Below are positions 3,048 to 26,896 of a stretch of DNA of 64,000 bases, piece after piece. The stretch covers positions 8,854 to 72,853 of IMG/VR virus record IMGVR_UViG_3300038436_000248; one strand, 5' to 3'. A program made the position numbers and the translations under genes. The notes below the pieces were generated by a model that worked only from the letters and a program-made list of their open reading frames with translations, had not been told where the DNA came from and made no database searches. Source of the DNA: a virus. Position 1 is the stretch's first letter; each line of letters opens with the position of its first letter.

Positions 3048-3056
3048 TGCTCCTCC

Positions 3057-3254
3057 TCAGATAATTAGAAAACTAAAACTTGTTATTCCTGCAATGATAA
3101 GGGCAATTATACCCACAATCACACAGGTGATCACAGCAAAGATGAACAACCCGATCAGGGTGGTTACAATAAGCTGAACGAAAGCGATCAGCATGGCAAG
3201 TACTGCGCAAAACACATTGAATAGATTGACAGACGCTTCAACGAATTTCAACAT
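3057..3254 (-). CDS. Small membrane protein
   Basis: 65 aa, almost entirely hydrophobic; AAGGAG RBS. Confidence 0.7.
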   Translation of the reverse strand: MLKFVEASVNLFNVFCAVLAMLIAFVQLIVTTLIGLFIFAVITCVIVGIIALIIAGITSFSFLII

Positions 3255-3536: not shown

Positions 3537-3770
3537 TTAGAACTCCCGCAAGCTCCATAGGAGATCCTCCCTTCCAACACCAAGATACTGCGCTGCAACT
3601 TTGTACATATGCCTGATGCGGAAGGGCCTGGTACTACTGGACTGCATTGTTCCTAGCGCCTCCCCTCCGTAGCATACAGCCCAGAGGGTATTATCGGCAC
3701 GAGTGAATACGCAGACCCTTCCCTTATTTGAAACTTGCACCTGATTACAATTGATCTGTTTCATCTCCAT
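3537..3770 (-). CDS. Hypothetical protein
   Basis: ORF in the co-oriented array; start chosen at MEMKQ. Confidence 0.55.
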   Translation of the reverse strand: MEMKQINCNQVQVSNKGRVCVFTRADNTLWAVCYGGEALGTMQSSSTRPFRIRHMYKVAAQYLGVGREDLLWSLREF

Positions 3771-3912
3771 TTGCAGGCACCTCTTCCAGGGATATTGAGA
3801 ACGGGCTTTCGCACTTCTCACATACCACTTCAATGATCAGCGGATCATTCAGGTTTAGATGCTTGCAAACTGGACACTCCCAGATGCCCAGCGCTTCCCG
3901 TAAACTGGACAT
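3745..3912 (-). CDS. Small zinc-ribbon protein (CPVC...CEKC)
   Basis: MSSLREALGIWECPVCK...CEKCES; TAATG coupling to the upstream gene. Confidence 0.65.
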   Translation of the reverse strand: MSSLREALGIWECPVCKHLNLNDPLIIEVVCEKCESPFSISLEEVPANGDETDQL

Positions 3913-4841: not shown

Positions 4842-4901
4842 AAGGGTCTCCTTTTGATTGTTTGGGTGCCGCCAAATCAGGGGCACAATGAGGTAAGTTG
4901 G

Positions 4902-4933
4902 GTACGTTGGTACAAATTGGGGCTTACGCCCCA
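4902..4933 (-). repeat. Outlying copy of the double-hairpin element
   Basis: Sense TGGGGC-GTAA-GCCCCA ATTT GTAC-CAAC-GTAC, intergenic. Confidence 0.6.
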
Positions 4934-4949
4934 GAGTCCACATTTGGAC

Positions 4950-6042: not shown

Positions 6043-6093
6043 GGGTAAAGATGTCACAATATTTGCATGACATAGATCACCCGAAATGGGGGC

Positions 6094-6348
6094 TTATTCT
6101 GCCCCCTGCCTGAAGTGCACGACGGCTTCTTGCTTGTGATCTTGAATCGCCTGCGTGCATGCGTTTTTGATCGCCTCTGCCATGGCATCCACGGACACAT
6201 CCAGAGTACCAGTACTGATGCTCACAAACCAGGGCATACCATCAGAGGGCAAGCACAGGACAAACATACCAGGGAGGAGGCTAAGTACAAGGGGTTCTTG
6301 ATGCCCTGCTTTCACTGCCGCTGCTTCAACTTGTTCTTTCTCAACCAT
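6094..6348 (-). CDS. Hypothetical protein
   Basis: 84 aa; GGAGG RBS; stop sits in the loop of a GGGGGC/GCCCCC hairpin followed by ATTT. Confidence 0.7.
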   Translation of the reverse strand: MVEKEQVEAAAVKAGHQEPLVLSLLPGMFVLCLPSDGMPWFVSISTGTLDVSVDAMAEAIKNACTQAIQDHKQEAVVHFRQGAE

Positions 6349-11559: not shown

Positions 11560-11899
11560 CTTTCTTTATTGTTCATATTTGGACTCTTTCCCCTTATAAT
11601 GAAGGGCTTCCTGTGGGGGCGATTCCCCTGCCGCCTGCCGCCTTCGGGGTGGTGCTCCTCCTGTCCCCTGTCCCCTGCCGGACGTCCAGCGCCACCGGGG
11701 GCGTGTCAAGCCTGCAACCAGGCACAATACGGCACACGGGATTATAAAAGGGGATGCGAAGGAAACTGGCTGCATCCAGGTTGAAGTGGGCTGTCCGTTG
11801 CCAACGTGACCACGCATGCGGGACGTGCCTGCGACGCAGACGATTCCCGTGCCCTGTATAGGTCTATCGTTCAAGGGCATTCCCTCTCGGAGTGAGGGT

Positions 11900-11934
11900 G
11901 ATCCTCTGGGGATCAAATAGCCCCTTGCGGGGCT
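11900..11934 (-). repeat. Outlying copy of the double-hairpin element with inverted first stem
   Basis: Sense AGCCCC-GCAA-GGGGCT ATTT GATCC-CCAGA-GGATC, 22 nt after a stop codon. Confidence 0.65.
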
Positions 11935-11956
11935 GGTGCTGCAGGTTACTGGCTTT

Positions 11957-12337: not shown

Positions 12338-12702
12338 GGGGCTTCCTCTCTTTCTTGGGGCTCTTCTTGAAAGATCAGCGTATACTTCCTTCCCTCAAAC
12401 ACAAAGCAATAGGGCTCAGCCATTGTGTACAGTTTAGGCAGGAACCCTTTTGGCCTCCATTCTCCATCATCATCCAGCATCTCGATAATGGGGCTGATGT
12501 AAGCGGGCTTGAAGGGGTATTCGTTTGTGTCCTTTGCATAGATCGGCACCCATAGGCGGGCATGCTTATGGATTGGCAACCTGCAGGCAGCCTGCAGAAG
12601 CATCGCTCGTTGTGGCTGGTGATTCCCCCGCAATATCTTGCGCCACTGGTTTGTTGTTTCCTTGTCCATCCTGACCCGCAGTTCGATTGTTTTATCAGGC
12701 AT
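12316..12702 (-). CDS. Hypothetical protein, tandem paralogue family
   Basis: MPDKTIEL...WRKILRG...RLWVPIY...FEGRKYTLIF; AAGGAGG RBS. Confidence 0.75.
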   Translation of the reverse strand: MPDKTIELRVRMDKETTNQWRKILRGNHQPQRAMLLQAACRLPIHKHARLWVPIYAKDTNEYPFKPAYISPIIEMLDDDGEWRPKGFLPKLYTMAEPYCFVFEGRKYTLIFQEEPQEREEAPCQKNQL

Positions 12703-12719
12703 TTGGTTCCTCCTTTAGG

Positions 12720-14368: not shown

Positions 14369-14602
14369 TTACTCCTCCTCACATTCGGGGGCGTTGTCAT
14401 CGGCAAGAAGATCAATTCCTGTCAGGGTGTACAGATCCTGCCACTCTGCACCACAGTCCCTGCAGGCAATGTCCTGCCATGCGCTCATGCCGTCCGCCTG
14501 CACGAAGTCGATTGAACTGATGTTTGTGGAGCCACATTTTGGGCAGGCATTTCCGTTATGCCCTTTGTAGGTATCCCATAATTCTTGATTTGTTTTTGGC
14601 AT
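14369..14602 (-). CDS. Zinc-ribbon protein
   Basis: CPKCGS...CRDCGAEW; GAAAGGA RBS. Confidence 0.75.
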   Translation of the reverse strand: MPKTNQELWDTYKGHNGNACPKCGSTNISSIDFVQADGMSAWQDIACRDCGAEWQDLYTLTGIDLLADDNAPECEEE

Positions 14603-14661
14603 TTCCAATTCCTTTCGAGTCCAGCCACCGGATTGTGGCAAATGGGGCTTGCGCCCCTGCT

Positions 14662-15792
14662 CTATGCAACTTCCATCAACTCCTCTTCCTCATCTTCTTC
14701 ACACTCCCAGGGTTCTTCTTCCAGCACGTCAGGCTGTTCCAGGAGCTCATCTGCATCGAAGGTGTTGAGGTGGGCCTTCGCCTTGCGGGTCTCTTCAAGA
14801 TGATCCGTTCTCCACAGGTCTGCCTGAAAGCGACAGTCCCAGCAACCACTCCCATCCTCTCGCTGGCGGAAGAACTCCTTGGTGACCTCGGCCAGGAAGA
14901 TCGGGGAGTCATCCACAGTGCCAAACTCACACCAGCTCCCACGCCCACACACATCCATGAGCCGTCCATCTGGCAGATAGGTCAGGAAAGTTACCCCACC
15001 AGAGCCCTTGCTCCCACTGTCGGACATAGTGGAAACACCCACGCCACGTCCATTCGGTGCGATTCCTGATGTGTTGGTATAGAAAGGTTCCACATGTATC
15101 CAGGGGTCGCTTGAGTCTGGGGGAGGGGCATAGACCGTGTCCTCATCGGGGAACTCATACTCCCCATCTACACCGCAATCTTCACAGTAGCCATCAGGGA
15201 GCTTCTCTCCACATTCAGGGCATACACAGACCTCCTCATCAAACAGCGTTCCATCTTCCCATATCCCTTCAAGAGCTGTGTGGAGCTTGTCCCCTTGTCC
15301 GGTTGCGTAGTAGGGGATAGCCGCCCCTGTCAGGTAGTGCGGGCGGAACTCATTATGATAGGGGTCATTGGAGATACGCACAGAGATCCGATCACCAGTC
15401 TCCATGCACTCGCTTCTTCCGCTTTCCTCTACATAGGGCGCCATGATTTCCATAAAGCGCTTGGTGGCATCAGAGTCTGCCAGCCACCATCCATTGGTGG
15501 TCATCTCGAGGTCAACAGGCCAGTGACCCACAATGTTCAGGACATGTGCAAACTTTTCCATGTCCATTGTTGGCTCCCCACCAATCAGGTTTATTATCAC
15601 CTTTATTTCCAGGTCTTGAAGCAGGTCTACCTGCTGCTTTACTTTGTATAGCATATCATCCCCCATATAAACAGGGTCGCTCTTTGGCGAGCATTCATAC
15701 ATGCAGTGCCGACAGGCAAACGTGCAGGCTTCTGTCAACAGCAGGCTGATGGTCACACCATCTTCTTTGTACTTCTCAAGATGCACAGTCAT
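14662..15792 (-). CDS. Radical SAM protein with internal zinc-ribbon insertion
   Basis: CTFACRHC CxxxCxxC, LIGGEPT, TTNG, ISNDPYH; insert CPECGEKLPDGYCEDCG; GGAGG RBS before MTVHLEK. Confidence 0.88.
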   Translation of the reverse strand: MTVHLEKYKEDGVTISLLLTEACTFACRHCMYECSPKSDPVYMGDDMLYKVKQQVDLLQDLEIKVIINLIGGEPTMDMEKFAHVLNIVGHWPVDLEMTTNGWWLADSDATKRFMEIMAPYVEESGRSECMETGDRISVRISNDPYHNEFRPHYLTGAAIPYYATGQGDKLHTALEGIWEDGTLFDEEVCVCPECGEKLPDGYCEDCGVDGEYEFPDEDTVYAPPPDSSDPWIHVEPFYTNTSGIAPNGRGVGVSTMSDSGSKGSGGVTFLTYLPDGRLMDVCGRGSWCEFGTVDDSPIFLAEVTKEFFRQREDGSGCWDCRFQADLWRTDHLEETRKAKAHLNTFDADELLEQPDVLEEEPWECEEDEEEELMEVA

Positions 15793-15853
15793 GGGATACC
15801 TCCGTGTAATAAACGCTCCCGGATTGGAGCAAATCGGGGCCGAAGCCCCTGTG

Positions 15854-16420
15854 TTACACTGCTTGTGGTGCCCATTGCAGATCAGTGCGGATGACAGCAT
15901 CCATCAGGTATCCCTTGTTGAGCTTCGCCAGGCTGCAGGACACTCTTACGCCACCATCCACTTCCTGGGCAAGGCGGACATGGAAGGGCTTCTTACTCTC
16001 CACGTAGAAGAGTTTCACGGTACGCCCACTGTTGAAGGTGATCTCTTCAGGGAGTTCGATGAACGCTCCCTTCTTGACCTTCCCCCAATTCTCCGCCAGC
16101 CTGCGGTTGTCCTCCCGCCATTTGATAGCATGCGGGTACTCGGTAGGCGTGAGCTTGTCCAGGATGGATAGGGGACAGCCATACACATATGGACCAGACG
16201 ATTCGTCCATGTCCTTGAACGTGAGGTTGAAACCATCCCGGTTATTTGGTGTCCATTTGAGCATCACCACCAGGGCGAACACCGTACCGTCTGGCTTGCG
16301 CAGAGCCGCAAAGTACTTGTTGCGCTCAAGGTGGTCCTCAACCACTTCATACGGGCGTGCAAGCCCTCGCATGATCCGACGGCACTCCCCTTTACCGCAG
16401 CGCATTCCAGTCCAACCCAT
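15854..16420 (-). CDS. Conserved phage/MGE protein (DUF6927-like)
   Basis: MGWT start; FKDMDESSGPYVYGCPLSILDKLTPT...A..WR motif. Confidence 0.7.
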   Translation of the reverse strand: MGWTGMRCGKGECRRIMRGLARPYEVVEDHLERNKYFAALRKPDGTVFALVVMLKWTPNNRDGFNLTFKDMDESSGPYVYGCPLSILDKLTPTEYPHAIKWREDNRRLAENWGKVKKGAFIELPEEITFNSGRTVKLFYVESKKPFHVRLAQEVDGGVRVSCSLAKLNKGYLMDAVIRTDLQWAPQAV

Positions 16421-16803
16421 TAGTTCACCTCCGTTGGGTATCCCATATCCAGGGCGTCTTGATAGTACGGTGCGTAATGCCCTTTCTTGCGTTCTGTCTC
16501 AACAGCCTCTGCAAAGCCCTTGTACCCAAGCTCCAGGGCACGCTTTGCATTTGCGATGGCCTCTGCACGGACACGGCCTCTGTGCATCATATATCCCGTT
16601 TTGGCTTCAGTGATAATCCAATCCCCGGGAAGGCCAGACGGGGTAACATCCCTGCGAATGTGCGCATCCACAAACTCAAACCCAGGGATAACCACCTTGC
16701 TTGCGTTGCATGGGGTGAAGATTGCCCCGTTCACAACCTCAGACCCTTCCGGCGCAGGGCGCTCTGGATTATGCCGGGTGTAGTACCTTGCGTTTGCAGC
16801 CAT
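16420..16803 (-). CDS. Hypothetical protein
   Basis: MAANARYY...; GGAGG RBS; TAATG coupling. Confidence 0.7.
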   Translation of the reverse strand: MAANARYYTRHNPERPAPEGSEVVNGAIFTPCNASKVVIPGFEFVDAHIRRDVTPSGLPGDWIITEAKTGYMMHRGRVRAEAIANAKRALELGYKGFAEAVETERKKGHYAPYYQDALDMGYPTEVN

Positions 16804-16804
16804 C

Positions 16805-17107
16805 TTATTTTGCCTCCTGAGCGATTTCTTGTGCCCATTCCTCAGCTTCTGCACGAGCCCTGTTTAGGGTTGCGAATGAGCCACGACTATTGACGGTCAC
16901 AATGCCGTCCGAGAAAACACGGCGTACCTTGTACAAGCGCTTGCCGTGCGGCGGTTTGATGCTGTGAATAAAGAGTGCCCCACCATCCGGCAGGTTCCAG
17001 AGATCCGGATAGGTGATGTCTTTGAAGGCCCTGACCGCACCCTTGGAGAAGAAGTGGTGCCCAATCTTCTCATTCGCTTCTTTGATCTGCTCAACACTGT
17101 AGAACAT
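16805..17107 (-). CDS. Conserved phage hypothetical protein
   Basis: IKEANEKIGHHFFSKGAVRAF motif; GGAGG RBS. Confidence 0.75.
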   Translation of the reverse strand: MFYSVEQIKEANEKIGHHFFSKGAVRAFKDITYPDLWNLPDGGALFIHSIKPPHGKRLYKVRRVFSDGIVTVNSRGSFATLNRARAEAEEWAQEIAQEAK

Positions 17108-17166
17108 AGCAACCTCCATAAACTAGACGCTCCCGGATTGGAGCAAATAGGGGCCAGAGCCCCTGT

Positions 17167-17565
17167 TCATCCCAGAACTCTCCTCTTCTCAGGAGGGATG
17201 TAGTCTGGATGATCTTTGTACCTGGGGCAATATCCAGATGTTTCCAGCCATCCACGCAGTTCCTCCTGTACTTGTTTTGGGTGTGCAGTGATTTCATTGA
17301 GCACTCTTTGAACAGCCTGCTCTTTTGTTTCTCCATTCATTATGAGGTACCCTGTGCGCCCGTCGTATATTCGCCACAGGCACCCATAGGGGGAAGGAGT
17401 GGCCCACATATCATCAAACTGCTCGTATCCCTCAAGGACAACAGGCTCCCCGTTGGGTTCATGTACGAACATGGGCTCTCCATCTTTGTCCCTGATGTAC
17501 TCAACGTCCCATAGTGGGCTCTTCCGCTCACTCCACAGTACCCTGCGGTAATAACCTTCTGGCAT
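17167..17565 (-). CDS. Hypothetical protein
   Basis: MPEGYYRR...; AAGGAG RBS; bounded by hairpin elements on both sides. Confidence 0.75.
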   Translation of the reverse strand: MPEGYYRRVLWSERKSPLWDVEYIRDKDGEPMFVHEPNGEPVVLEGYEQFDDMWATPSPYGCLWRIYDGRTGYLIMNGETKEQAVQRVLNEITAHPKQVQEELRGWLETSGYCPRYKDHPDYIPPEKRRVLG

Positions 17566-17626
17566 AATTGCACTCCTTTTGTGTAGGGCTCCCGGATTGG
17601 AGCAAATCGGGGCCGAAGCCCCTTGG

Positions 17627-18031
17627 TTAGATGTACCCAAGTTTCTCTGCAACATCCTTCATGCTGTCCCAGAACAGATCCATGTAGGCGTCCTCCATTT
17701 CCTGTGCCATGTCATAAAGCTGATGGATGGTCGGCTTGAAGCCCAGGTGGCGTTCAACATCCTCAACGGACATGGCGGCGATATACATTGAACTTGCGGA
17801 GACCTGATTGGATTTCCAGGGGCCTACATAGTGTCCCTGGGCAATGTCGTTGAAGTTGTAACGAACTTCCTTGAAGTACGCACGGGACAGTGCTCCTGCA
17901 AGGCTCTCACATTGCTCCTCAAACAGGCTATCCACGAAGCCCTGGTTCTCAAGAACACACACGACGGGGGCTTGCTCCCATTTCTCACCAAACTGACGTG
18001 CTTTGAAGGTTGCTTTCTCGAAGGTAGGCAT
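17627..18031 (-). CDS. Hypothetical protein
   Basis: 134 aa; bounded by hairpin elements on both sides. Confidence 0.75.
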   Translation of the reverse strand: MPTFEKATFKARQFGEKWEQAPVVCVLENQGFVDSLFEEQCESLAGALSRAYFKEVRYNFNDIAQGHYVGPWKSNQVSASSMYIAAMSVEDVERHLGFKPTIHQLYDMAQEMEDAYMDLFWDSMKDVAEKLGYI

Positions 18032-18094
18032 TTCATTGTCCTTTCATTTGCAGCCACCGAATTGTGGCAAATGGCGGGATATACCCGCCAGGAT

Positions 18095-18457
18095 TTAGCT
18101 TTCACTTGGGAGGTGTAGCACCCAATATTCCCCCGATTGCCCTACCCAGATGTCAATGTCCCCGGGGATGTCCGTGAACTCGATCTTCTGGGATGTCAGG
18201 GGCCGGTAGTTCCCATCCTCACAGGTCAGCACAGCCCCACCTTCAGGAAGCTTTCGTAACTTCCAGACCTGGAAGGGCTCGTTGCGCAGCTTCTTGGCAT
18301 AGGATGCGATGGCGTCCATCAGCCAAAAGGCCTTGTATGTCTCAGCTGCGTACTTTGCCCCGTCCGTGAGCAGGTGGGTGGGATACAGTTGAGGGCTCCA
18401 GCGGTGATACGCCTCAGTCCCATAGAAGCCTTCCATTGAGTCGTTGAGTAAAGCCAT
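18095..18457 (-). CDS. Conserved protein (DUF6876-like)
   Basis: FYGTEAYHR...LTDGAKYAAE..KAFWLMDAIAS...FQVWKL motif. Confidence 0.75.
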   Translation of the reverse strand: MALLNDSMEGFYGTEAYHRWSPQLYPTHLLTDGAKYAAETYKAFWLMDAIASYAKKLRNEPFQVWKLRKLPEGGAVLTCEDGNYRPLTSQKIEFTDIPGDIDIWVGQSGEYWVLHLPSES

Positions 18458-18469
18458 GGTGATCCTCCT

Positions 18470-18688
18470 TTATTCCGCTTCAGTGATTTCGATGATCCGC
18501 CCCAGCGAGTCATCCTCAATAAGAACAGGCAAGTCACGTGCGCTGCCGTACACTTCCAGACCATCGTCGAGATACTCCTCGATCAGATCTTCCACAGTCT
18601 CCCGTGCTTCCCGAAGACTGTCACACTCAATCACGGTGTCCGCCAGGTACCCACCCTGTATCCCGTCAGTGACAATAAAGAGTGCCAT
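18470..18688 (-). CDS. Small acidic hypothetical protein
   Basis: 72 aa; GAAAGGAG RBS. Confidence 0.75.
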   Translation of the reverse strand: MALFIVTDGIQGGYLADTVIECDSLREARETVEDLIEEYLDDGLEVYGSARDLPVLIEDDSLGRIIEITEAE

Positions 18689-18754
18689 TTGAAGCTCCTT
18701 TCAGTAGTAAAACGGGCCCATCCATGGGCAAATAGGGGGCCAGAGCCCCCTGCA

Positions 18755-19108
18755 TTACTGTGCTGCCCTCACCATGTCAGCAGCTTCGATTGGAACGTAG
18801 GCGTTGATCTCTGCTGCATCCGCCTTGCGCACCAGCTCCTGACAGAACTTGACCGCCCACTCATTGCGGGCGTCATAGTGATTGCCACTCTCGGCTGCGT
18901 ACCAGAACAGCACGGACACCAGGAACTTGATGACCTCTTGCTGCAGGTAACGGTGCTGATACTTCAAGGCCTTGGCTGTTTCACGGGCCTTCAAGCGGTT
19001 GATGTTCGCCATGTCTCCAAGTAGCTCGCCCATAAACTCTGGCGTGACCTCTTTCCGTAGGTCATAAGCAGAGATGGCAGCATCATTGACGGTGATTGTT
19101 TTAGGCAT
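18755..19108 (-). CDS. Hypothetical protein
   Basis: MPKTITV...; GAAAGGAG RBS. Confidence 0.75.
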   Translation of the reverse strand: MPKTITVNDAAISAYDLRKEVTPEFMGELLGDMANINRLKARETAKALKYQHRYLQQEVIKFLVSVLFWYAAESGNHYDARNEWAVKFCQELVRKADAAEINAYVPIEAADMVRAAQ

Positions 19109-19155
19109 AGTGAAGCTCCTTTCAGGAGTAAAGAAGGTGCCCATCCGTGGGCAAA

Positions 19156-19509
19156 TCAGGGGCATGTAGCCCCTGTCCTGGATTCGATGACCCCCATGGT
19201 CAGGTCATATACACGGCGCAGGAAGTCCCTTTCCTGTATCGGCAGGAAGTAGTCTTCCTTGTAGGCCACGTCGAAGACACGAGCGTCCGGGCACTCATCA
19301 GGAGCAAAGACACCATGGCATGCCCAGCACTCTTCATTGTCCTGGCCGATCAGGACAGCGCCACAGTGTGGGCATTCTGTGAGGAGACCCGTCACCATCA
19401 CGGTGTTCTCAAGGTCTGAAACGAAGCCAATGGTCTCGATCTTGGCGGGGTTTGAACCATCCAGGTTCTCCAGGAAGCTCTTGGTTGAAGGGCGGATGTC
19501 AGTTTTCAT
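19156..19509 (-). CDS. Hypothetical protein with internal double zinc ribbon
   Basis: MKTDIRP...CPHCG...CWACHG; stop lies in the ATTT linker of a hairpin element. Confidence 0.7.
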   Translation of the reverse strand: MKTDIRPSTKSFLENLDGSNPAKIETIGFVSDLENTVMVTGLLTECPHCGAVLIGQDNEECWACHGVFAPDECPDARVFDVAYKEDYFLPIQERDFLRRVYDLTMGVIESRTGATCP

Positions 19510-19516
19510 GTGAAAA
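19503..19516. promoter_or_regulatory. parS-like site, one mismatch, overlapping a start codon
   Basis: AGTTTTCATGTGAAAAGT at 19501-19518. Confidence 0.45.
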
Positions 19517-19582
19517 GTTCCTTTCGGGAATGGTAGATAGGGATGTCCACATTTGGACAAATCGGGGGCAATGCCCCCTTGA

Positions 19583-19903
19583 TCAGTCAAACATCGTGCC
19601 AAAGCGCTGATTGTGAGCCTTCAGGCGGTCAGGGGTGATAGAGAACATGATCTCATTCACACGATCCACGAAGTCCTGGCTGCGCTTCTTTGAGCAGATC
19701 CCTGTAGGATCCACGTGCCGATCTTTTATTTCCCAATCCACCAGATGGGCAAGCCGTGCGTGGACCTGAGCGTACTCCATCAGGCTGTAGGAGTGGCCGT
19801 AATCATGCTCGGCGTACTCGACTTCAGGGAAGTGACCAGCCAGGAGGATCTCCCGCAGTTTTGCTTTTGTGGCGGTGTGAACGATCTTGTTTGTTTTAGG
19901 CAT
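19583..19903 (-). CDS. Hypothetical protein
   Basis: 106 aa; GAAAGGAG RBS. Confidence 0.75.
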   Translation of the reverse strand: MPKTNKIVHTATKAKLREILLAGHFPEVEYAEHDYGHSYSLMEYAQVHARLAHLVDWEIKDRHVDPTGICSKKRSQDFVDRVNEIMFSITPDRLKAHNQRFGTMFD

Positions 19904-19974
19904 AGCAATCTCCTTTCAAGAGACAAAGCGGTCTGTGCCCATCCGTGGGCAAATCGGGGGCATTGCCCCCTTGT

Positions 19975-20490
19975 CTAATCCATGTGGGTCCAGACACTCA
20001 TCTGGAAGCCCGCATCCCGAAAGACCTTGGCGAACGCTTCCGCAAAGGCCTGGTTCAGATCGTAGGATTGTCTGGCCGTACCATCCAGGCCAGCTTCTTC
20101 CGGGTGCCACGTAACACCCCGTGCGACTCCCCCGTAGTAGTGCTTGGAGAACTCATGGAACTTCGCAGCCCATTTAGCCAGGCTCGAATTGCCGGGGGTG
20201 ATGACCAGGGCGGCGTACCCGCAGGGGCCGTGCTTCACGACCTCTATCAGGCCCCTGTCAGGATCCACAACACCCATTGGGGTGCAGACGGTGTTCTTGA
20301 TGGCCTCAATCCCTGCGTTGTGAGCTTCCGCCCATAGCTTTGCAAACTGACTGTACCGATCTTCTCTCTCGGCAGCCTGATCGGCAATCATCTGCTTCCA
20401 GGCCTCACGTGCGGCCTTGCGATGCTCCTTGCAGTAGGAGCTACCCTTATGAGTCGGGTTTGAACATCCGTTATATTTGCAGGTAGTCAT
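19975..20490 (-). CDS. Conserved phage hypothetical protein with N-terminal Cys motif
   Basis: CKYNGC...YCKEH; GPCGYAALVI.PG...SYDLNQAFAEAFAKVF; GGAGG RBS. Confidence 0.75.
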   Translation of the reverse strand: MTTCKYNGCSNPTHKGSSYCKEHRKAAREAWKQMIADQAAEREDRYSQFAKLWAEAHNAGIEAIKNTVCTPMGVVDPDRGLIEVVKHGPCGYAALVITPGNSSLAKWAAKFHEFSKHYYGGVARGVTWHPEEAGLDGTARQSYDLNQAFAEAFAKVFRDAGFQMSVWTHMD

Positions 20491-20552
20491 GCGTTCCTCC
20501 GTATGGTTGATAGAGTTGGATTATACCACGCTGTATAAGTATAGCGTAAAAA

Positions 20553-21143
20553 CTAGAACAGGGGAAGCTGTTCTATGGATGTTCTGGCGAACACCCGTGT
20601 CCTTGCGGCCATCCATGTAACCGCCTGGATTTGATGGGGCATAAGCCCTGTGACCTCGGATGCTTCCAGGTACCCATCTGCGATCTCGTTGTATCGCTTA
20701 CCTGCCAGGGTGCCGGGGTTGACACTGAGGTCTCCCATGGCAATACGTGCTGCCCATACATCGACAGTCACCGCCTTGGAACTGTCAGGCCGCAGGATGT
20801 TATCCCAGAAGGACGTCACCTTGACCCCGCTCAGCACATCCAGATGGCCTGCAGCGATCTGAAAGGCCTTGAGCTTGTTCGTGCCATAAGTGGCAACCTT
20901 GATGCTGTTCGGGTGGATCCCGACCTTATGGGCACGCAGCACCGTCAAGGTGTCCGACAGATTGCGTTCCCACTTATTGCGTGGGCTCAATACTGCCAGG
21001 ACACCTGCCACGTTCTCGAGCGGCAGCATCAACTCAGTCGCCCAGGTGCGGCACCAGTTGTGCGCTTGCTGGTACCACGTCATCCCCGCCTGGCGGTCCA
21101 TGCCATCTGCACGGGTGAACAGGGCCATAATGTTCTCAAGCAT
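20553..21143 (-). CDS. Conserved phage protein (DUF7178-like; possible HhH-GPD-related fold)
   Basis: WY..A...AGVLAVLSPRNKWERN...KVTSFWDNI...VTVDVWAAR...QIQAVTW. Confidence 0.7.
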   Translation of the reverse strand: MLENIMALFTRADGMDRQAGMTWYQQAHNWCRTWATELMLPLENVAGVLAVLSPRNKWERNLSDTLTVLRAHKVGIHPNSIKVATYGTNKLKAFQIAAGHLDVLSGVKVTSFWDNILRPDSSKAVTVDVWAARIAMGDLSVNPGTLAGKRYNEIADGYLEASEVTGLMPHQIQAVTWMAARTRVFARTSIEQLPLF

Positions 21144-21203
21144 ACGTACCTCCGAAGAAAGTCACCGCCGAATTGCGGCAAATCAGGGGCATATGCCCCT
21201 GTC

Positions 21204-21566
21204 CTACTCAGTGAACGTTGTCCACGCCTTGAACAGGTCTTTATAGTTCACGGTGGCGGAGGGGTATGCCTCCGACTTCAGGAGTGCCCCGTGGCTGTAG
21301 AACGTCACGGAACAACCATAGGTGGCACGCCCATCTCCGAACGGGCAATCTTGCGTGACCAGGCCACGATCCTCCGGGATGCCCAACCCTGGGACGTAAT
21401 TCCTGACCACACACCCCTCAATTTGAGGGATGCACACAATATGTGGGGACCTCTTGACCAATCCCGCAAGCTCAATCATCTGGGCCAGGGTGCCCCTGTC
21501 AACTGCAAGGGTGTAAAGGAAGCTCACGCCATGCTGATTAGACTCAGATACGACAGTAATAAACAT
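21204..21566 (-). CDS. Hypothetical protein
   Basis: MFITVVS...; GGAGG RBS; bounded by hairpin elements. Confidence 0.7.
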   Translation of the reverse strand: MFITVVSESNQHGVSFLYTLAVDRGTLAQMIELAGLVKRSPHIVCIPQIEGCVVRNYVPGLGIPEDRGLVTQDCPFGDGRATYGCSVTFYSHGALLKSEAYPSATVNYKDLFKAWTTFTE

Positions 21567-21625
21567 ATGCACCTCCAAGGAAGAGTGCCACCGGATTGTG
21601 GCAAATAGGGGCATGCGCCCCTGTC

Positions 21626-21877
21626 TTATGCGTTCACCGTGAGGAAGTCTTCAAGGTGAAGGTTCTCGATTACCTGCCATGCAGGCACGTGGGCAATCAT
21701 CCCACTCTGGGATCTCACCAGGCCATCAGAATTGATCCAGCGTTCCGGGTCATCCTCATTTACGGCCTCAATCGCCTTTTTAGCAACGCCCATCCACTCG
21801 GGCATCGGGGGGTAGACGTTATGCTGCAGGTGATTCGTAAGAGCCACATGAAACCGAATTGCAGTTGCTCCAGTCAT
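21626..21877 (-). CDS. Hypothetical protein
   Basis: MTGATAIRF...; AAGGAG RBS; bounded by hairpin elements. Confidence 0.7.
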   Translation of the reverse strand: MTGATAIRFHVALTNHLQHNVYPPMPEWMGVAKKAIEAVNEDDPERWINSDGLVRSQSGMIAHVPAWQVIENLHLEDFLTVNA

Positions 21878-21923
21878 TTTCAACTCCTTTTGAAACGCCA
21901 CCGGATTGCGGCAAATGGGGGGC

Positions 21924-22106
21924 TTATCGCCCCTTGTGATACTCAACCATGGCGTCCCAGGCGTCACTCCATGAAGCATGGGGCCCAGAAACCATATCCC
22001 ATGACCCACGGCCATGCAGTGCGTCATTCCCTGGGGTCTCTGATACAATCGCGTACTCATCATTCCGATGTAGCACATAGAACTCAACATGTGTTTCTTC
22101 AGGCAT
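21924..22106 (-). CDS. Small hypothetical protein
   Basis: MPEETHVEF..., 60 aa; GAGGA RBS. Confidence 0.7.
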   Translation of the reverse strand: MPEETHVEFYVLHRNDEYAIVSETPGNDALHGRGSWDMVSGPHASWSDAWDAMVEYHKGR

Positions 22107-22107
22107 A

Positions 22108-22428
22108 CTATCCTCCTATATAGATCTTGCTGCGATTGCGGGGCTGATTTGAACCACGCAGGATGATATTGACAATATCGCCCCGCTTGGTACCGTCTGG
22201 GCGCTTGCAGACAATCCAGATCTCATCACCCCAGGCACCGGGTGCATTCACAGGCGCATCCAGGCGCTTCACGAACACCCAGGTCTCTTGCCCGACCTCA
22301 AGTTCAGGAATGCATTCCAGAACTGCAGCTGCTTCCTGCACGGTCACAAGACCCGCCAGGCGCAGGTGCAGGCGCTCCTGAAAATGGGCCGTGACTTTCA
22401 GGCCCGATTTGAAGAATGTTTTGAACAT
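22108..22428 (-). CDS. Hypothetical protein
   Basis: MFKTFF...TAHFQERL..R; AAGGAGG RBS. Confidence 0.7.
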   Translation of the reverse strand: MFKTFFKSGLKVTAHFQERLHLRLAGLVTVQEAAAVLECIPELEVGQETWVFVKRLDAPVNAPGAWGDEIWIVCKRPDGTKRGDIVNIILRGSNQPRNRSKIYIGG

Positions 22429-22467
22429 ACGTACCTCCTTGAAAATGGGGGGCACAAGGCCCCCTGA

Positions 22468-22695
22468 TTATTTGGACAGAATGCCCTGGACCACGTCCAG
22501 GTTTTGGCCGCCATTCATGCGGCCTACGACTGCAGTGGCACCATCAACCACTGCACCATTGACGGCACTTGATGCACCGTCGGAAGCCCCATCAAGGAGC
22601 TGGTTAGCTTCGTTTTCCATGCGCTCACCAAAGACCCCCAAGGCCGCCAGAATAATAATGACGGCAATCAAGAACAGCAAACCCAAGACTTTCAT
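22468..22695 (-). CDS. Small protein with N-terminal signal/TM helix
   Basis: MKVLGLLFLIAVIIILAALGVFG; GAAAGGA RBS. Confidence 0.7.
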   Translation of the reverse strand: MKVLGLLFLIAVIIILAALGVFGERMENEANQLLDGASDGASSAVNGAVVDGATAVVGRMNGGQNLDVVQGILSK

Positions 22696-22739
22696 CACAG
22701 ATCCTTTCTGAACAAGCTTGCCGGATTGCAAGCTTCAAA

Positions 22740-23260
22740 AATGCCCAAGCTACGCACTTGGGCACTTGTGAAGCCCCCGCAAGCGCAACCTTGCGGGTCT
22801 GATATGATTCCCCGGTCTCGTTCACCCCTTGACCAGGGTCGGTTTGTGCAATCGCACTGCACACAAGGGCTCTCATTATCTCTGGCCCCCGAAGGGGCAG
22901 CCACTGGCTCCGGCTCTTTTGGACAGCTCTCGGCTCCCCGGCGGTTTGCCCGCCAGGCCCGTGCCCTAAGATGACCGCTCCAGGCATCACCCGTTGTTTG
23001 ATTTCCCAGTTTGTTCATCTGGGGGGGTATCGCAGACCAGTTCCACGCTTTCCGCTCCGATTCCGTTACCGCTGGCGCTGCTCCCGTGTATGGCACTACC
23101 GTTCTCACATTACCCTCAGACTTCGAACCACTCGCCCGCTTAGGGCACACCTAAGCCGCCCCCCACCTACCGGATTCTCTAGTCCTACTCTATTCCTGAG
23201 TAAGGCCTTGCCAATTTTTAAAGTTCAGGTACTACCCAATAGGCCGTCCTTGGCCGCCCG
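22740..23260 (-). ncRNA. Candidate large structured non-coding RNA (about 500 nt)
   Basis: No credible ORF; many GC-rich hairpins, e.g. CCCC-TTCG-GGGG, CCCGCAAG/CTTGCGGG, GCTTAG/CTAAGC, GTGC-GATT-GCAC; ends in TGCCCAAG/CTTGGGCA-TTTTT. Confidence 0.5.
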
Positions 23261-23262
23261 GA

Positions 23263-23646
23263 CTACTTGCGTCCGCCGGGATTCTTCAAATTCGAGACCT
23301 TGATCAGGCCTTGGTACGTGACCACCCGCCCGCCCTTGCGATAGGTCACCCGCCCGGAAACCACGTTCACAAACAGGTGTCCAAAAGCTTCATTCGCACG
23401 GGCGTTGTAGCCCTCGCTGGCGTCCAGCTCCAGCTCTATCGGGTCAATCTGAAGCCACTTGGGCACCCGGCGCCCGTCCTTGTCAAGGGCTTTGCAATAG
23501 CCCTCAATTATCAGGACGTGAGTCCGCTCGGGCTTGGGCTTGGCGGGGGCGAGACTGCGAAACTCGCCCGTGTTGCCCAATTCCTTTGCTTCCCGGCGCC
23601 GGGCGGCGAGATCTGCCGCTTGACGCAATTTGCCCTCTTTACTCAT
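23263..23646 (-). CDS. First gene of the early array, basic hypothetical protein
   Basis: MSKEGKLRQ...; GAGG RBS. Confidence 0.7.
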   Translation of the reverse strand: MSKEGKLRQAADLAARRREAKELGNTGEFRSLAPAKPKPERTHVLIIEGYCKALDKDGRRVPKWLQIDPIELELDASEGYNARANEAFGHLFVNVVSGRVTYRKGGRVVTYQGLIKVSNLKNPGGRK

Positions 23647-23769
23647 TCCAGACCTCACCTTTCTGCCCCGCCGGGGCGCTGTGTTTTGTTCGATGACCTA
23701 ATAATAGCGATACCACACGGTATTAGGTTAGTAGATATTTGCATAGCCTAAAAATAGGTGGTGGGATGC

Positions 23770-24155
23770 CAGGTGCCAAAAAAGGGCAAAAACAGGGACG
23801 CCGTCCCCCAAAAGTGGCAAAAAATGGTGCCAAAGTGGGGGAGTGTTGGGGAAAAGTGCGCAGGAGCGCCCAAAGTGAATCCCCTCAGAAATCGGTGTTT
23901 TTGTTTTCAAATTTTTAAATTTTTCACGTGAAAATTTTCCGCCCCCCAAATTTCCCCCTCTCGCAACCCCCTCCCTTCGAGCGTCAAGAATTTCCTCCAT
24001 CCCACAGTTCCATTCTCATATGTTCCAAAGTTCCCCCCACGTCTCAGTGCCCTTCTCTATGCAGCATGGAATCTCTCACGCCCCCTTGATTTTTATCCCC
24101 CGCCGTTTTTGCTTTTCCCCCCGCCGTGCACATGAACTTATTGCCCCCCGCCGCT
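23770..24155. other. Non-coding junction with phased A-tracts, C/G tracts and CCCCCGCCG direct repeats (candidate terminus, pac site or origin)
   Basis: A-tracts about 10, 20 or 22 bp apart at about 23778-23875; CCCCCGCCG at 24097, 24118 and 24145; strand switch. Confidence 0.5.
23921..23934. promoter_or_regulatory. parS-like palindrome TTTTCACGTGAAAA
   Basis: Perfect palindrome in the junction region. Confidence 0.6.
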
Positions 24156-26421: not shown

Positions 26422-26448
26422 AACACGTGCAGCGTAAAAGAAAAGACC

Positions 26449-26465
26449 AGCCTTATTGGGGCTGA
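26449..26465. terminator. Probable terminator hairpin between convergent genes
   Basis: CAGCC...GGCTG flanked by A-rich and T-rich sequence. Confidence 0.4.
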
Positions 26466-26494
26466 TCCTGTTTTGCTTATTTACTGCTGCGTTT

Positions 26495-26896
26495 TTACCC
26501 GTCCTGGGACTGCTCCATGGGCCTGCCGCATTTCGGGCAGTAGTTGTACCCATGTTCTTTCGGGGTGGCTATTTCAAAGATAAATGCCTCCCCACAGTTT
26601 GTTTCCCAACGATCCCCATATTCATCGTATACATATTTCCACAGACAAACGTCAGGGTTGTCCACTTTTGGATATGCCCTGGTGCTCCACTTTTTGATGG
26701 CCTCTTCCTTTGTGGGGAATAGATCTGTCATTGGCCCCTCCAGTGGACATGGGGCTGCTGCGCCCAGCGCTTCCTTCATCGGGTTCCAGGAGCATCCAGC
26801 AGTCCAACCACCAGCTCGTTCAATTGCTTCCCCAGGGTTTCCACAAAACGGGCATGATGGAATAGGGAGCTCTTTGGGTTCTTCAAGGGTATCCAT
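26495..26896 (-). CDS. Lar-like (restriction alleviation) zinc-finger protein
   Basis: CPFCG...C...CP...TKEEAIKKWSTR, plus C-terminal YCPKCG. Confidence 0.7.
   Translation of the reverse strand: MDTLEEPKELPIPSCPFCGNPGEAIERAGGWTAGCSWNPMKEALGAAAPCPLEGPMTDLFPTKEEAIKKWSTRAYPKVDNPDVCLWKYVYDEYGDRWETNCGEAFIFEIATPKEHGYNYCPKCGRPMEQSQDG

What the first reader, a model, noticed from the sequence alone, without database searches (positions are those of the whole stretch)
14624..22764. Early genes are cut into cassettes by about 15 covarying double-hairpin elements (GGGGC..GCCCC-AUUU-stem/AAUCCG loop)
Seen in sequence: an element of about 35 nt sits between a stop codon and the next SD at 14624, 15815, 17129, 17588, 18053, 18716, 19139, 19545, 19937, 21164, 21587, 21897 and 22714. 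Outliers are at 4902 and 11900, and first-stem-only copies at 6084 and 22442. The stems covary (GCCAC/GTGGC, GCTCC/GGAGC, GCCCA/TGGGC, GTCCA/TGGAC, AAGCTTGC/GCAAGCTT; the first stem is fully inverted at 11900). The AT-rich linker ending ATTT(T) is nearly invariant and the second loop is AATCCG/AATTCG in 9 copies. Two copies have G-U pairs only in the minus (sense) strand, which points to an mRNA (or minus-strand ssDNA) structure. Spacing is 270-1310 nt, enclosing 1-3 unrelated genes. Inference: a processing-and-stabilisation code in which a cut in the AU linker leaves each message with a 3' and a 5' protective hairpin. This would be analogous to T7/SPO1 RNase III sites but with a different architecture. 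Alternatively the repeats are recombination joints that let accessory genes be shuffled like cassettes. I do not recognise this element as a described family.
Basis: partly seen in the sequence, partly recalled or inferred. Interest (0 to 1): 0.85.

Follow-up and report, generated by a model that had tools for sequence, protein, structure and literature searches.

The report
Double-hairpin gene-cassette joints in phage
A temperate phage from a hydrocarbon metagenome separates its small early genes with 13 copies of a ~36-base double hairpin that is readable only on the mRNA strand. Related phages gain, lose and reorder genes at these copies, so the element is probably an mRNA punctuation mark and also serves as a recombination joint.

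Summary
Thirteen full elements lie on the minus (sense) strand at exactly the reported coordinates. Each consists of a GC hairpin, an invariant AUUU-G linker and a second hairpin. There are also 2 outliers and 2 copies with only the first stem. The core pattern gives 13 hits against 0.03 expected by chance. Hairpin 2 covaries at 4 of 5 pairs with 100% pairing, and no Rfam family matches. The genome is an 85.7-kb integrase- and ParB-bearing provirus with no RNA polymerase of its own. The elements lack a sigma70 -10 box, and they differ from the genome's canonical terminators, which carry six or more U.

New evidence comes from relatives. Genomes 97% identical to the window lack one ORFan cassette (17165-17587). 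Their single remaining element joins the upstream flank of one window copy to the downstream flank of the other, so the crossover lay inside the element. Relatives at 80% and 70% identity show cassette loss, replacement and reordering next to elements.

My verdict is a promoter-less, double-hairpin variant of PeSL-type mobile regulatory cassettes. The recombination role is shown. The RNA role is inferred (leaky terminator or 3' cap, a cut in AUUU, then a 5' cap); no RNA data exist. This scan has noted PeSL-like cassettes in other phages, but not this element.

The parts
22714..22763 (-). Head-of-array element, long variant: 8-bp hairpin 1, AUUUUUG, 8-bp hairpin 2 with AAUCCG loop. Ends the ~480-nt non-coding leader and precedes the 75-aa gene.
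   Evidence: (MFE -30.7 kcal/mol, z -4.6)
22441..22465 (-). First-stem-only copy (GC hairpin + AUUUUC, then the SD directly)
21897..21933 (-). Element (hairpin 2 GCCGC/GUGGC with a G.U pair). The stop codon of the 60-aa gene lies in the loop of hairpin 1.
21587..21622 (-). Element (GCCAC/GUGGC, loop AAUCCG)
21164..21201 (-). Element (GCCGC/GCGGU with a G.U pair, loop AAUUCG), upstream of DUF7178
19937..19970 (-). Element, B-type hairpin 2 (GCCCA CGGA UGGGC). Hairpin 2 is identical at the orthologous site in both relatives.
19545..19578 (-). Element (GUCCA AAUG UGGAC)
19139..19175 (-). Element (GCCCA CGGA UGGGC). The UGA stop of the 117-aa gene is the spacer in front of UUU.
18716..18751 (-). 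Element (GCCCA UGGA UGGGC)
18053..18089 (-). Element with a variant stem 1 (GGCGGG/CCCGCC) and GCCAC AAUUCG GUGGC
   Evidence: (partial hit)
17588..17622 (-). Element upstream of ORFan g132 (UUCG loop; GCUCC AAUCCG GGAGC); left repeat of the cassette indel
17165..17587 (-). The g132 cassette (gene 17167-17565 plus one element's worth of sequence). Absent from 97%-identical genomes L025-L028 and from runs X1-X4.
17129..17164 (-). Element downstream of g132; right repeat of the cassette indel
15815..15849 (-). Element upstream of the radical-SAM gene (UUCG loop)
14624..14657 (-). Element downstream of the radical-SAM gene (GCAA loop)
11897..11936 (-). Outlier: stem 1 inverted (GCCCC GCAA GGGGC), AUUU, then GAUCC..GGAUC. 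Orthologous copy at L007:8105-8144.
   Evidence: E 0.06
4899..4935 (-). Outlier: UGGGGC GUAA GCCCCA, AUUU, 4-bp hairpin 2
   Evidence: E 0.0015
6067..6106 (-). Weak copy: hairpin 1 + AUUU, with a doubtful second stem
20495..20552 (-). The one junction inside the array that has a sigma70-type promoter (extended -10, TGgTATAAT) instead of an element. It shows that host-type promoters look different from the element.
   Evidence: read directly; same position in distant relative L079 has TTGACA-17-TATAAT

Best explanation
The elements are cis-acting modules of the sense-strand RNA. They sit between translation units of a long early transcript that is made by the host RNA polymerase. Hairpin 1 has a G/C stem, usually a UNCG or GNRA tetraloop, and starts 2-5 nt after the stop codon. 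It acts as a leaky terminator and/or a 3'-end cap for the upstream message. The invariant, single-stranded AUUU-G is where the RNA is released or, more likely, cut by a host endoribonuclease specific for single-stranded RNA (RNase E/G-type or RNase Y-type). Hairpin 2 has a covarying 5-bp stem and a loop conserved between orthologues. It positions that event and caps the 5' end of the downstream message, 18-35 nt ahead of its start codon. Because about 36 nt are shared by all copies in one orientation, homologous recombination between copies deletes, inserts and reorders whole gene-plus-element cassettes without breaking expression. Shown: the family, its RNA-type structure, its difference from promoters and from full terminators, and recombination inside it. 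Inferred: the cut, the protective roles and the enzyme. Sub-odds: real structured sense-strand element 0.9; used as recombination joint 0.85; endonucleolytic processing in the linker about 0.35-0.4.
For: Family and structure: (13 hits against 0.03 expected; all on the sense strand; 100% pairing; 4 of 5 compensatory pairs in hairpin 2; the double hairpin is the MFE in every copy).

RNA rather than duplex DNA:
- The 3 wobble pairs are G.U on the sense strand only, and there is no A.C.
- 12 of the 17 four-base loops of hairpin 1 are UNCG or GNRA with a C-G closing pair. Their complements (CGAA, UUGC) belong to neither class. The orthologous site after g171 carries AAU, UUCG and GCAA in the three lineages.

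The linker is single-stranded: P(unpaired) is typically 0.9 or more for A-U-U when folded in a 144-nt context.

Constraint: in six orthologous window/L007 pairs, linker plus hairpin 2 differ at 4 of about 118 nt, against about 20% in the surrounding DNA, while the loop of hairpin 1 differs in 4 of 6 pairs.

Not a promoter: no -10 box at a usable distance, none of the elements is called by the promoter scan, and any start would fall in or past the SD. No phage RNA polymerase was found.

Not a full terminator: only 3 U follow the stem, whereas operon-end terminators in the same genome have 7-9-bp stems followed by 5-7 U. The model does not hit those terminators.

The linker fits known nuclease rules. 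RNase E prefers RN|WUU in single strands with U at +2 (PMC5222698): G-A|U-U-U is present in 6 of 13 copies and A-U|U-U-G in all. RNase Y cleaves an intergenic site a few nt upstream of a required stem and stabilises the downstream fragment (PMC5449607).

Recombination:
- L025-L028 (97-98% identical) lack 17165-17587. The two alignment blocks overlap by 36 nt, which is the element.
- The single element left carries the UUCG loop and G spacer of copy 17607 and the downstream flank of copy 17148.
- L007 lacks the g120 cassette, with both breakpoints in elements.
- In L011 the homologues of g83 and g120 lie after the DUF7178-g171 block and in reverse order, each still bounded by elements.

Architecture in more distant relatives: a GC hairpin, then AUU(U/G), then a second hairpin of 4-24 bp recurs in L079 and G002:C16.
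Against: No RNA data exist for this phage, so no 5' or 3' end is mapped; the cut is pure inference.

The host is unknown. The only genome-borne relatives of the terminase are in two Chloroflexota MAGs. Those MAGs have RNase Y, but no RNase E/G was found (the MAGs are incomplete). RNase Y has a weak sequence consensus (PMC11780869), which fits poorly with an invariant AUUUG. Its sae determinant is a 24-bp duplex, not 5 bp.

Four window copies carry different hairpin-2 loops (CGGA, UGGA, AAUG), so a single loop-specific reader is unlikely.

Whole-gene indels must end in intergenic DNA, and 13 of 18 junctions here carry an element. Breakpoints at elements are therefore not in themselves enriched over junctions. 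Two of six window/L007 breakpoints, and the second window/L025 indel (12357-12704), are not at elements. The strong case rests on the chimeric junction of one cassette.

The single element left in L025-L028 reads AAUUCG in its hairpin-2 loop, whereas both window copies that flank g132 read AAUCCG. It is therefore not a plain chimera of the two window copies and needs one further base change.

Copies are related by descent, so the counts of tetraloops and covarying cells overstate the number of independent events.
Confidence: 0.5

Rival explanations
1. Attenuators only. Hairpin 1 plus UUU is a deliberately weak intrinsic terminator after each translation unit. It sets a descending or translation-dependent transcription gradient, since a ribosome at a stop codon 2-5 nt away would melt the stem. 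Hairpin 2 is a second weak stop or an insulator, and no cleavage occurs.
For: GC stem with a stable tetraloop followed by U's. Some hairpin-2 copies are followed by U-rich tails and are called terminator-like by the simple scan. The head copy at 22742 has 5 U and looks like a real terminator. Stop-to-stem distances are 2-5 nt. Hairpin-1-only copies exist (22443, 6087).
Against: The U-run is fixed at 3 in 12 of 13 copies and never drifts longer, while real terminators in this genome have 5-7 U. Thirteen in series would starve the replication genes downstream. The model gives no reason for the invariant A and G around UUU. It also does not explain the covariation and the 3% orthologue divergence of hairpin 2 including its loop.
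Confidence: 0.2
2. Hairpin 2 is an operator for an RNA-binding protein. This could be a boxB-like site for an N-type antiterminator that lets polymerase pass the hairpin-1 stops in relay, or a site for a translational repressor of early genes.
For: Hairpin 2 is the size of boxB (5-bp stem, 4-6-nt loop). Its loop is conserved between orthologues. The phage is temperate (integrase). The first early gene (23263-23646), upstream of the first stop-like element, has a basic N-terminal stretch.
Against: Three loop classes coexist, and a loop-reading protein would not tolerate them. The basic stretch is not conserved in L011. That protein has no Pfam or PHROG match. Known nut systems need one or two sites, not 13. 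The distance to the SD varies from 18 to 35 nt, which is awkward for occlusion.
Confidence: 0.12
3. A dedicated DNA-level site. This could be an integron-attC-like target of a site-specific recombinase, a folded single-strand site, or an N4-type hairpin promoter extruded from duplex DNA.
For: The array is cassette-like, with same-orientation structured repeats and covarying stems, as attC sites have. The B-type loop CGGAU is the reverse complement of the A-type AUCCG, a change typical of DNA-level hairpin flipping.
Against: The only tyrosine recombinase is an ordinary end-of-prophage integrase about 53 kb away. There are two short separate hairpins rather than one long imperfect hairpin with extrahelical bases. 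RNA-specific tetraloops and G.U pairs favour RNA. There is no virion RNA polymerase or any other polymerase. The junction in L025 is what plain homologous recombination predicts.
Confidence: 0.06
4. Ordinary PeSLs: each element contains a host-type early promoter plus a stem-loop, so every cassette is its own transcription unit.
For: ATTTGCC contains a TTGCCA-like -35 hexamer in 5 copies. PeSLs also carry G/C-run stem-loops and end in an SD (PMC2839356).
Against: A TAnnnT hexamer 15-19 nt downstream is found in at most 2 of 13 copies, and a start there would fall in or after the SD. The real promoter in the array (about 20500-20550) looks quite different. Covariation in the would-be spacer is not expected of a promoter.
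Confidence: 0.04
5. T7/SPO1-type RNase III processing sites.
For: Intercistronic position in an early operon. The distant relative L079 has ~24-bp second hairpins that would suit RNase III.
Against: In the window the stems are 5-8 bp and separate, well below the roughly two helical turns that RNase III needs (established knowledge; long-range duplexes in PMC11780869). No longer alternative pairing is predicted.
Confidence: 0.03

Closest known systems
PeSLs (promoter-early stem-loops), the mobile regulatory cassettes of T4-type phages (Arbiol et al. 2010, PMC2839356; Comeau et al. 2014, PMC4122927)
   Same: A repeated module of under 100 nt lies between stop and SD of small, mostly ORFan genes in a plastic early region. 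It has a G/C-run stem-loop. Indels, replacements and shuffling between related phages occur at the modules. A deletion leaves one chimeric module.
   Different: No sigma70 promoter. Two hairpins joined by an invariant AUUU. The second stem covaries. The module is much shorter (about 36 nt). The phage is a temperate siphovirus-like provirus from an uncultured host, not a T4-like myovirus. Mini-circles were not tested.
RNase Y intergenic processing sites (S. aureus saePQRS, PMC5449607; B. subtilis maps, PMC11780869)
   Same: An intercistronic site where a stem a few nt downstream of a single-stranded cut site is the determinant. Cleavage uncouples the fates of upstream and downstream cistrons. 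RNase Y is present in the only candidate-host MAGs.
   Different: The sae determinant is a 24-bp duplex 6 nt from the cut, whereas here there is a 5-6-bp stem 0-4 nt away. RNase Y shows little sequence preference, whereas AUUUG is invariant here. No cleavage was shown.
RNase E/G sites (RN|WUU, U+2 ruler; PMC5222698)
   Same: A single-stranded A/U segment flanked by stems. AUUUG contains the motif with U at +2 in every copy.
   Different: No RNase E/G was found in the candidate-host MAGs. No repeated, dedicated RNase E cassette signal of this form is known to me.
T7 early-mRNA RNase III sites
   Same: They punctuate a polycistronic early transcript and leave a protective 3' hairpin.
   Different: They need a duplex of about 20 bp or more, and the cut is inside the stem. 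Stems in the window are too short.
Integron attC sites
   Same: One structured, covarying repeat per gene cassette, all in one orientation.
   Different: attC is a single 55-140-nt imperfect hairpin of the bottom DNA strand, recognised by an adjacent integron integrase. Here there are two short RNA-type hairpins and no dedicated recombinase.
Start-associated sequences and extended SAS of Cluster K mycobacteriophages (PMC3203893)
   Same: 11-19 one-orientation repeats sit just upstream of a subset of genes of a temperate siphovirus. About half carry an inverted repeat with a variable spacer. Their function is unknown.
   Different: The SAS overlaps the SD and start codon and is conserved in sequence. 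There is no GC terminator-like hairpin, and no cassette shuffling has been reported at them.
Bacterial REP/BIME elements (established knowledge)
   Same: Intercistronic palindromic repeats that protect upstream mRNA 3' ends and promote rearrangements.
   Different: They are chromosomal, occur in both orientations, and have a dedicated RAYT transposase. The candidate-host MAGs contain no such family matching this model.

Membership tests
PeSL (T4-type mobile regulatory cassette) | Repeated intergenic module flanking small accessory ORFs in a plastic early region | tested here: met
   13 copies over 8.2 kb between 19 small genes, mostly without known function
PeSL (T4-type mobile regulatory cassette) | Contains a strong sigma70-like early promoter (-35, -10, AT-rich upstream part) | tested here: not met
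   No -10 hexamer at a usable spacing in 11 or more of 13 copies. The scan calls none of the elements (read).
PeSL (T4-type mobile regulatory cassette) | G/C-run stem-loop acting as terminator or attenuator | tested here: inconclusive
   The stem-loop is present and stable. Terminator activity cannot be tested here. The U-run is only 3, against 5-7 in the genome's own terminators.
PeSL (T4-type mobile regulatory cassette) | Indels and replacements between relatives bounded by the modules, leaving a chimeric module | tested here: met
   g132 cassette: 36-nt overlap and a chimeric element in L025-L028. The g120 cassette and the permutations in L007 and L011.
PeSL (T4-type mobile regulatory cassette) | Excised cassette mini-circles | not testable with these tools
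   Only assembled contigs of four runs are available, and they hold the deleted form only.
Canonical intrinsic terminator | GC-rich hairpin immediately followed by a U-tract of about 5 or more | tested here: not met
   3 U in 12 of 13 copies, so hairpin 1 is not called by the scan. Canonical examples elsewhere in the genome are listed.
RNase III site (T7/SPO1 type) | Duplex of about two helical turns | tested here: not met
   Stems are 5-8 bp, and no longer pairing appears in context folds.
RNase E/G site | Single-stranded RN|WUU with U at +2 | tested here: met
   AUUUG is unpaired. The motif rule is taken from PMC5222698.
RNase E/G site | Enzyme present in the host and cleavage observed | tested here: inconclusive
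   The host is unknown. PF10150 was not found in two incomplete Chloroflexota MAGs that carry terminase relatives. No RNA data.
RNase Y site (sae type) | Required stem a few nt downstream of a single-stranded cut site | tested here: inconclusive
   The arrangement is present, but the stem is 5-6 bp against 24 bp in sae (PMC5449607). RNase Y is present in both MAGs. Cleavage is untested.
Integron attC / cassette array | Single long imperfect hairpin plus an adjacent integron-type integrase | tested here: not met
   Two short hairpins. The only PF00589 gene is at genome 84714-85676, the prophage end.
N4-type hairpin promoter | A virion or phage RNA polymerase that reads DNA hairpins | tested here: not met
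   No ORF over 720 aa except the tape measure, and no polymerase domain in the ORFs scanned.
Any Rfam 15 family | Match at the gathering score or at E<0.5 | tested here: not met
   0 matches at gathering. Only an unrelated sub-threshold hit at 35733-35805.

The most novel reading that the evidence does not exclude
The double hairpin is a dedicated 'cut here' signal. A host or phage endoribonuclease cleaves the invariant AUUU and converts one long early transcript into hairpin-capped single-cassette messages. Each cassette carries its own 5' and 3' RNA ends, so any cassette can be moved by recombination between copies and still be expressed. This would be a promoter-independent, post-transcriptional counterpart of PeSLs and integron cassettes, with versions of the same design (a second stem of 5 to 24 bp) across a lineage of uncultured, possibly Chloroflexota-infecting phages.
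Probability: 0.3. Interest if true: 0.75.

Novelty: new variant of a known kind. Interest (0 to 1): 0.55.

Why it matters
Phage early regions are where anti-defence and host-takeover genes turn over fastest, and how they are swapped without wrecking expression is only partly understood. PeSLs solved this for T4-type phages by moving a promoter and a terminator with each gene. Here the portable unit has no promoter. If the RNA reading is right, expression of a newly acquired gene is secured after transcription, by portable RNA ends. That would be a different solution to the same problem, in a temperate phage of an uncultured host.

Practically, the covariance model gives a marker for cassette boundaries in this lineage. 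The array could be cloned to test what a stop-hairpin-AUUU-hairpin-SD module does to mRNA ends and half-lives. The chimeric junction in near-identical genomes is a clean natural example of recombination on about 36 nt of homology.

Tried and rejected
- Close relatives in public phage records and IMG/VR: none by megablast, by two DNA patterns or by terminase peptides. The terminase reaches only 27% identity in the phage collection.
- Metagenome pattern scan for the A-type linker plus hairpin 2: 45 loci, each with one match, about the number expected by chance. The model finds no full element and no array in them.
- Candidate-host MAGs: the model finds only scattered weak hits, so the element is not a host REP-like family there.
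I walked along the contig by exact-protein look-ups instead.
- Apparent deletion variant L010: it is only a contig that starts inside the neighbouring gene, not a deletion.
- RNA evidence: no RNA run holds the phage. The four DNA runs hold only the form without g132, so coexistence of both forms in one sample could not be shown.
- Trans-acting ribozyme or antisense RNA (lead from note e1-3293241): no ribozyme in the Rfam E-value scan. No same-strand complement to the linker or loop in the leader. The AAUCCGG near the predicted start of the leader is not in a hairpin.
- Dedicated recombinase (lead from e1-3541497): only the prophage integrase. No annealase or recombinase was recognised in the ORFs scanned.
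- N-like antiterminator: the basic N-terminus of the first early protein is not conserved in L011, and the protein has no family match.
- Homologues of g132, sought to trace cassette mobility: none other than itself.
- Host flank of the provirus: the look-up of a protein near the end found nothing.
- Sigma54-like and sigma70-like readings of the linker were checked by eye and dropped.

Full report
THE OBSERVATION

Reading 14500-23000 on the minus strand shows the same module again and again. After a stop codon comes a G/C hairpin (mostly GGGGC-loop-GCCCC). Then follow 0-2 nt, the invariant A-U-U-U-G, a second 5-bp hairpin whose first base is that G, 18-35 variable nt containing a strong Shine-Dalgarno sequence, and the next ATG. 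The core pattern occurs 13 times, always on the minus strand, against 0.03 expected.

A generic hairpin-ATTT-hairpin scan of the whole genome (85,676 bp, one contig; window = 8854-72853) finds the family only between window 4917 and 22742. The two outliers (4917; 11918 with stem 1 inverted) and the two first-stem-only copies (22443, 6087) are also as described.

Every standard copy folds into the double hairpin as its minimum-free-energy structure, at -19 to -24 kcal/mol. In a 144-nt context the A-U-U of the linker stays unpaired with probability typically 0.9 or more.

A covariance model from six copies, run without filters, finds 22 hits at E<1e-3 in the window and two relatives. All are on the sense strand. 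There is nothing in the rest of the genome.

On the model-fitted alignment 100% of cells pair. Four of the five pairs of hairpin 2 show changes on both sides, no shuffle out of 500 reaches the observed covariation, and sliding the partners destroys it. The stem types GCCAC/GUGGC, GCUCC/GGAGC, GCCCA/UGGGC, GUCCA/UGGAC and GCCGC/GCGGC can be read directly, so this does not depend on the fitted alignment. Hairpin 1 hardly varies in its stem. Rfam has no match.

THE GENOME

The record is a provirus, 96% complete by IMG/VR/CheckV. Its recognised genes are:
- a gpA-type terminase, a portal, a protease-like protein and a 1493-aa tape measure;
- ribonucleotide reductase, an N6/N4 methylase, SSB and a DNA polymerase A;
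- ParB just left of the window;
- a tyrosine integrase at its right end.

No ORF other than the tape measure exceeds 718 aa, and no RNA-polymerase domain was found. Early transcription must therefore use the host enzyme. The minus-strand genes run from about 23,800 leftward for more than 30 kb. The elements occupy the promoter-proximal 9 kb, with stragglers further on. The source is a hydrocarbon metagenome.

Across one genome per GTDB species, the only contigs encoding a relative of the terminase belong to two Chloroflexota MAGs, one Anaerolineales and one Chloroflexia. That makes Chloroflexota a tentative host phylum. Both MAGs encode RNase Y, and no RNase E/G domain was found in them (the MAGs are incomplete).

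WHAT THE ELEMENT IS NOT

It is not a host-type promoter. ATTTGCC can be read as a -35-like TTGCCA, but a TAnnnT hexamer at 15-19 nt is present in at most two copies. Any start there would fall in or behind the SD. The scan calls none of the elements. The one junction in the array that does carry a promoter (about 20500-20550, TGgTATAAT) has no element.

It is not an ordinary terminator. Operon-end terminators in this genome have 7-9-bp stems followed by 5-7 U. The element has exactly three U in 12 of 13 copies, followed at once by G and a second stem.

It is not an RNase III site, because the stems are too short. It is also neither an attC-type nor an N4-type site (see the membership table).

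WHY RNA

- The three wobble pairs in hairpin 2 (window 21183 and 21916, L011:5090) are G.U on the sense strand. They would be A.C mismatches on the other strand, and no A.C occurs.
- Of the 17 four-base loops of hairpin 1 in the window and two relatives, 12 are UNCG or GNRA closed by C-G (cUUCGg, cGCAAg). About 5% would be expected, and their complements are ordinary sequences.
- At the orthologous site after the 171-aa gene the three lineages have AAU, UUCG and GCAA on an unchanged stem. The loop therefore evolves freely, but towards stable RNA loops.

By contrast, linker plus hairpin 2, loop included, differ at only 4 of about 118 positions in six orthologous window/L007 pairs, where the surrounding DNA is about 20% diverged. 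These are the most constrained non-coding bases in the region.

RELATIVES AND RECOMBINATION

Exact-protein look-ups gave three tiers of relatives.

(i) L025-L029 are 95-98% identical to the window. In 21 kb they differ from it by two large indels. One removes window 17165-17587, that is the ORFan g132 plus one element. The two alignment blocks overlap by 36 nt, the length of the element. The single element left has the UUCG loop and G spacer of copy 17607 and the downstream flank of copy 17148. This is the signature of a crossover within the shared AUUUGCUCCAAU.CGGGAGC stretch, in either direction. The left element carries AAUUCG in its hairpin-2 loop where both window copies have AAUCCG, so one further base change has to be assumed. 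The four public runs that hold the phage carry only this shorter form. g132 has no homologue anywhere else. The other indel (12357-12704) lies in a tandem paralogue array and does not involve an element.

(ii) L007 is about 80% identical. It has five elements plus the 11918-type outlier. It lacks the 120-aa cassette, with both breakpoints in elements (21587 and 21206). It replaces the 60-aa gene, with the right breakpoint at an element. In place of nine window genes and six elements (19935-16421) it has one 61-aa remnant of the 120-aa gene; the left breakpoint is at an element and the right one is not.

(iii) L011 is about 70% identical. It has five elements. The homologues of the 83-aa and 120-aa genes, which precede DUF7178 in the window, follow the DUF7178-g171 block there, in the opposite order. 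Each is still flanked by elements. Several window cassettes are absent.

Genes not separated by an element are translationally coupled, with overlapping or abutting stop and start codons. A cassette is therefore one to three coupled genes plus one element.

One caveat applies. Whole-gene indels have to end between genes, and most junctions here carry an element. The coincidence of breakpoints with elements is therefore weak evidence by itself. The chimeric junction in (i) is the strong evidence.

WIDER DESIGN

Two more distant relatives show the same layout in other sequences.
- L079 (DUF7178 45% identical) has a GC hairpin, UAUUGUGAA and a hairpin of about 24 bp before the SD at four junctions.
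- A small-gene block on the Chloroflexia contig has three copies of a GC tetraloop hairpin, AUU(U/G) and a 4-6-bp hairpin.
- An AT-rich relative (L080) has none.

The pattern scan of JGI metagenomes gave only single, chance-level matches, so the window's sequence family is confined to its own lineage.

MECHANISM

What is shown: a sense-strand, RNA-type double hairpin at the boundary of translation units; strong constraint on AUUU-G and on hairpin 2; no promoter; not a full terminator; and recombination within the element.

What I infer: hairpin 1 ends or caps the upstream message, the single-stranded AUUU is cut, and hairpin 2 guides the cut and caps the downstream message.

The inference rests on precedent. 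RNase E prefers RN|WUU in single strands with U at +2 (PMC5222698). The linker offers A-U|U-U-G in all copies and G-A|U-U-U in six. RNase Y cuts the intergenic sae site a few nucleotides upstream of a required stem and thereby stabilises the downstream part (PMC5449607). Neither enzyme is established for the unknown host, and no RNA ends can be examined. I put the cut at 0.35-0.4 and the pure-attenuator alternative at 0.2.

The stop-to-stem distance of 2-5 nt means that a terminating ribosome would melt hairpin 1. In either model, therefore, the element should behave differently on translated and untranslated RNA.

COMPARISON AND NOVELTY

The closest known system is the PeSL of T4-type phages. 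PeSLs are repeated intergenic promoter-plus-stem-loop modules at which relatives gain, lose and swap ORFans, and excision leaves a chimeric module (PMC2839356, PMC4122927). The present element shares position, stem-loop and evolutionary behaviour, but it fails the defining promoter test. It adds a second, covarying hairpin and an invariant linker. I therefore file it as a new variant of a known kind, not as a PeSL.

Earlier notes of this scan describe PeSL-like promoter-hairpin cassettes in several other phage groups. None concerns this element.

Noticed in passing
L003:3244-7030 (= L008:806-4592); corresponds to window ~26430-26500: The 80%-identical relative carries an OLD-family ATPase/TOPRIM gene and a UvrD-type helicase (a Gabija-like pair) next to the EcoRI-methylase/GmrSD-HNH pair. 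The window phage lacks this insertion.
   Followed up: no
genome 7824-8606 (L013), about 250 bp left of window position 1: A ParB gene (ParB_N plus HTH_ParB) lies just outside the window.
   Followed up: partly
genome 84714-85676 (L014:11915-12877), minus strand: A tyrosine integrase sits at the end of the record, which IMG/VR classes as a provirus (96% complete). The phage therefore has both integration and partition genes.
   Followed up: no
window 12357-12704: Second large indel against the 97%-identical genomes. One member of the tandem paralogue array is missing there, joined through the repeated RBS junction and not through a double-hairpin element.
   Followed up: partly
window 20495-20552 (minus); L079:2700-2787: A sigma70-type promoter with extended -10 lies between DUF7178 and the 171-aa gene. 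At the same junction the distant relative has a perfect TTGACA-17-TATAAT whose -35 lies inside a hairpin, which is the PeSL-like arrangement.
   Followed up: partly
L079:1012-1086, 1853-1985, 3041-3204, 3673-3873; L033:8371, 12315, 13079: Distant relatives have the same stop-hairpin-AUU(U/G)-hairpin-SD layout with unrelated sequences. In L079 the second hairpin is about 24 bp, long enough for RNase III or for the RNase Y duplex determinant.
   Followed up: partly
window 22764-23262 (minus): A non-coding leader of about 480 nt lies between the first early gene and the first element. It has a promoter-like TTGGCA-16-TAGAGT at 23214-23187 and an AAUCCGG motif near the predicted start. It has no Rfam match, and the motif is not in a hairpin.
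   Followed up: partly
window 21924-21926 and 19156-19158: Two stop codons lie inside the element: TAA in the loop of hairpin 1, and UGA as the spacer before UUU. In those copies hairpin 1 is coding sequence.
   Followed up: yes
window 19937-19950, 19139-19152, 18716-18729 compared with the A-type copies: The B-type hairpin-2 core CGGAU is the reverse complement of the A-type AUCCG, as if the centre of the palindrome had been flipped at the DNA level. The significance is unknown.
   Followed up: no
window 35733-35805 (minus): Sub-threshold Rfam hit to skipping-rope RNA (26 bits, gathering score 36.7, E 0.07), at the place another note describes as tRNA-shaped RNAs.
   Followed up: no
window 23750-23870 (minus): The control region upstream of the first early gene holds several TTTGGCAC / TTTTGCCAC-like units. 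They resemble the ATTTGCCAC of A-type elements, which may be coincidence or may reflect a shared DNA-binding site.
   Followed up: no
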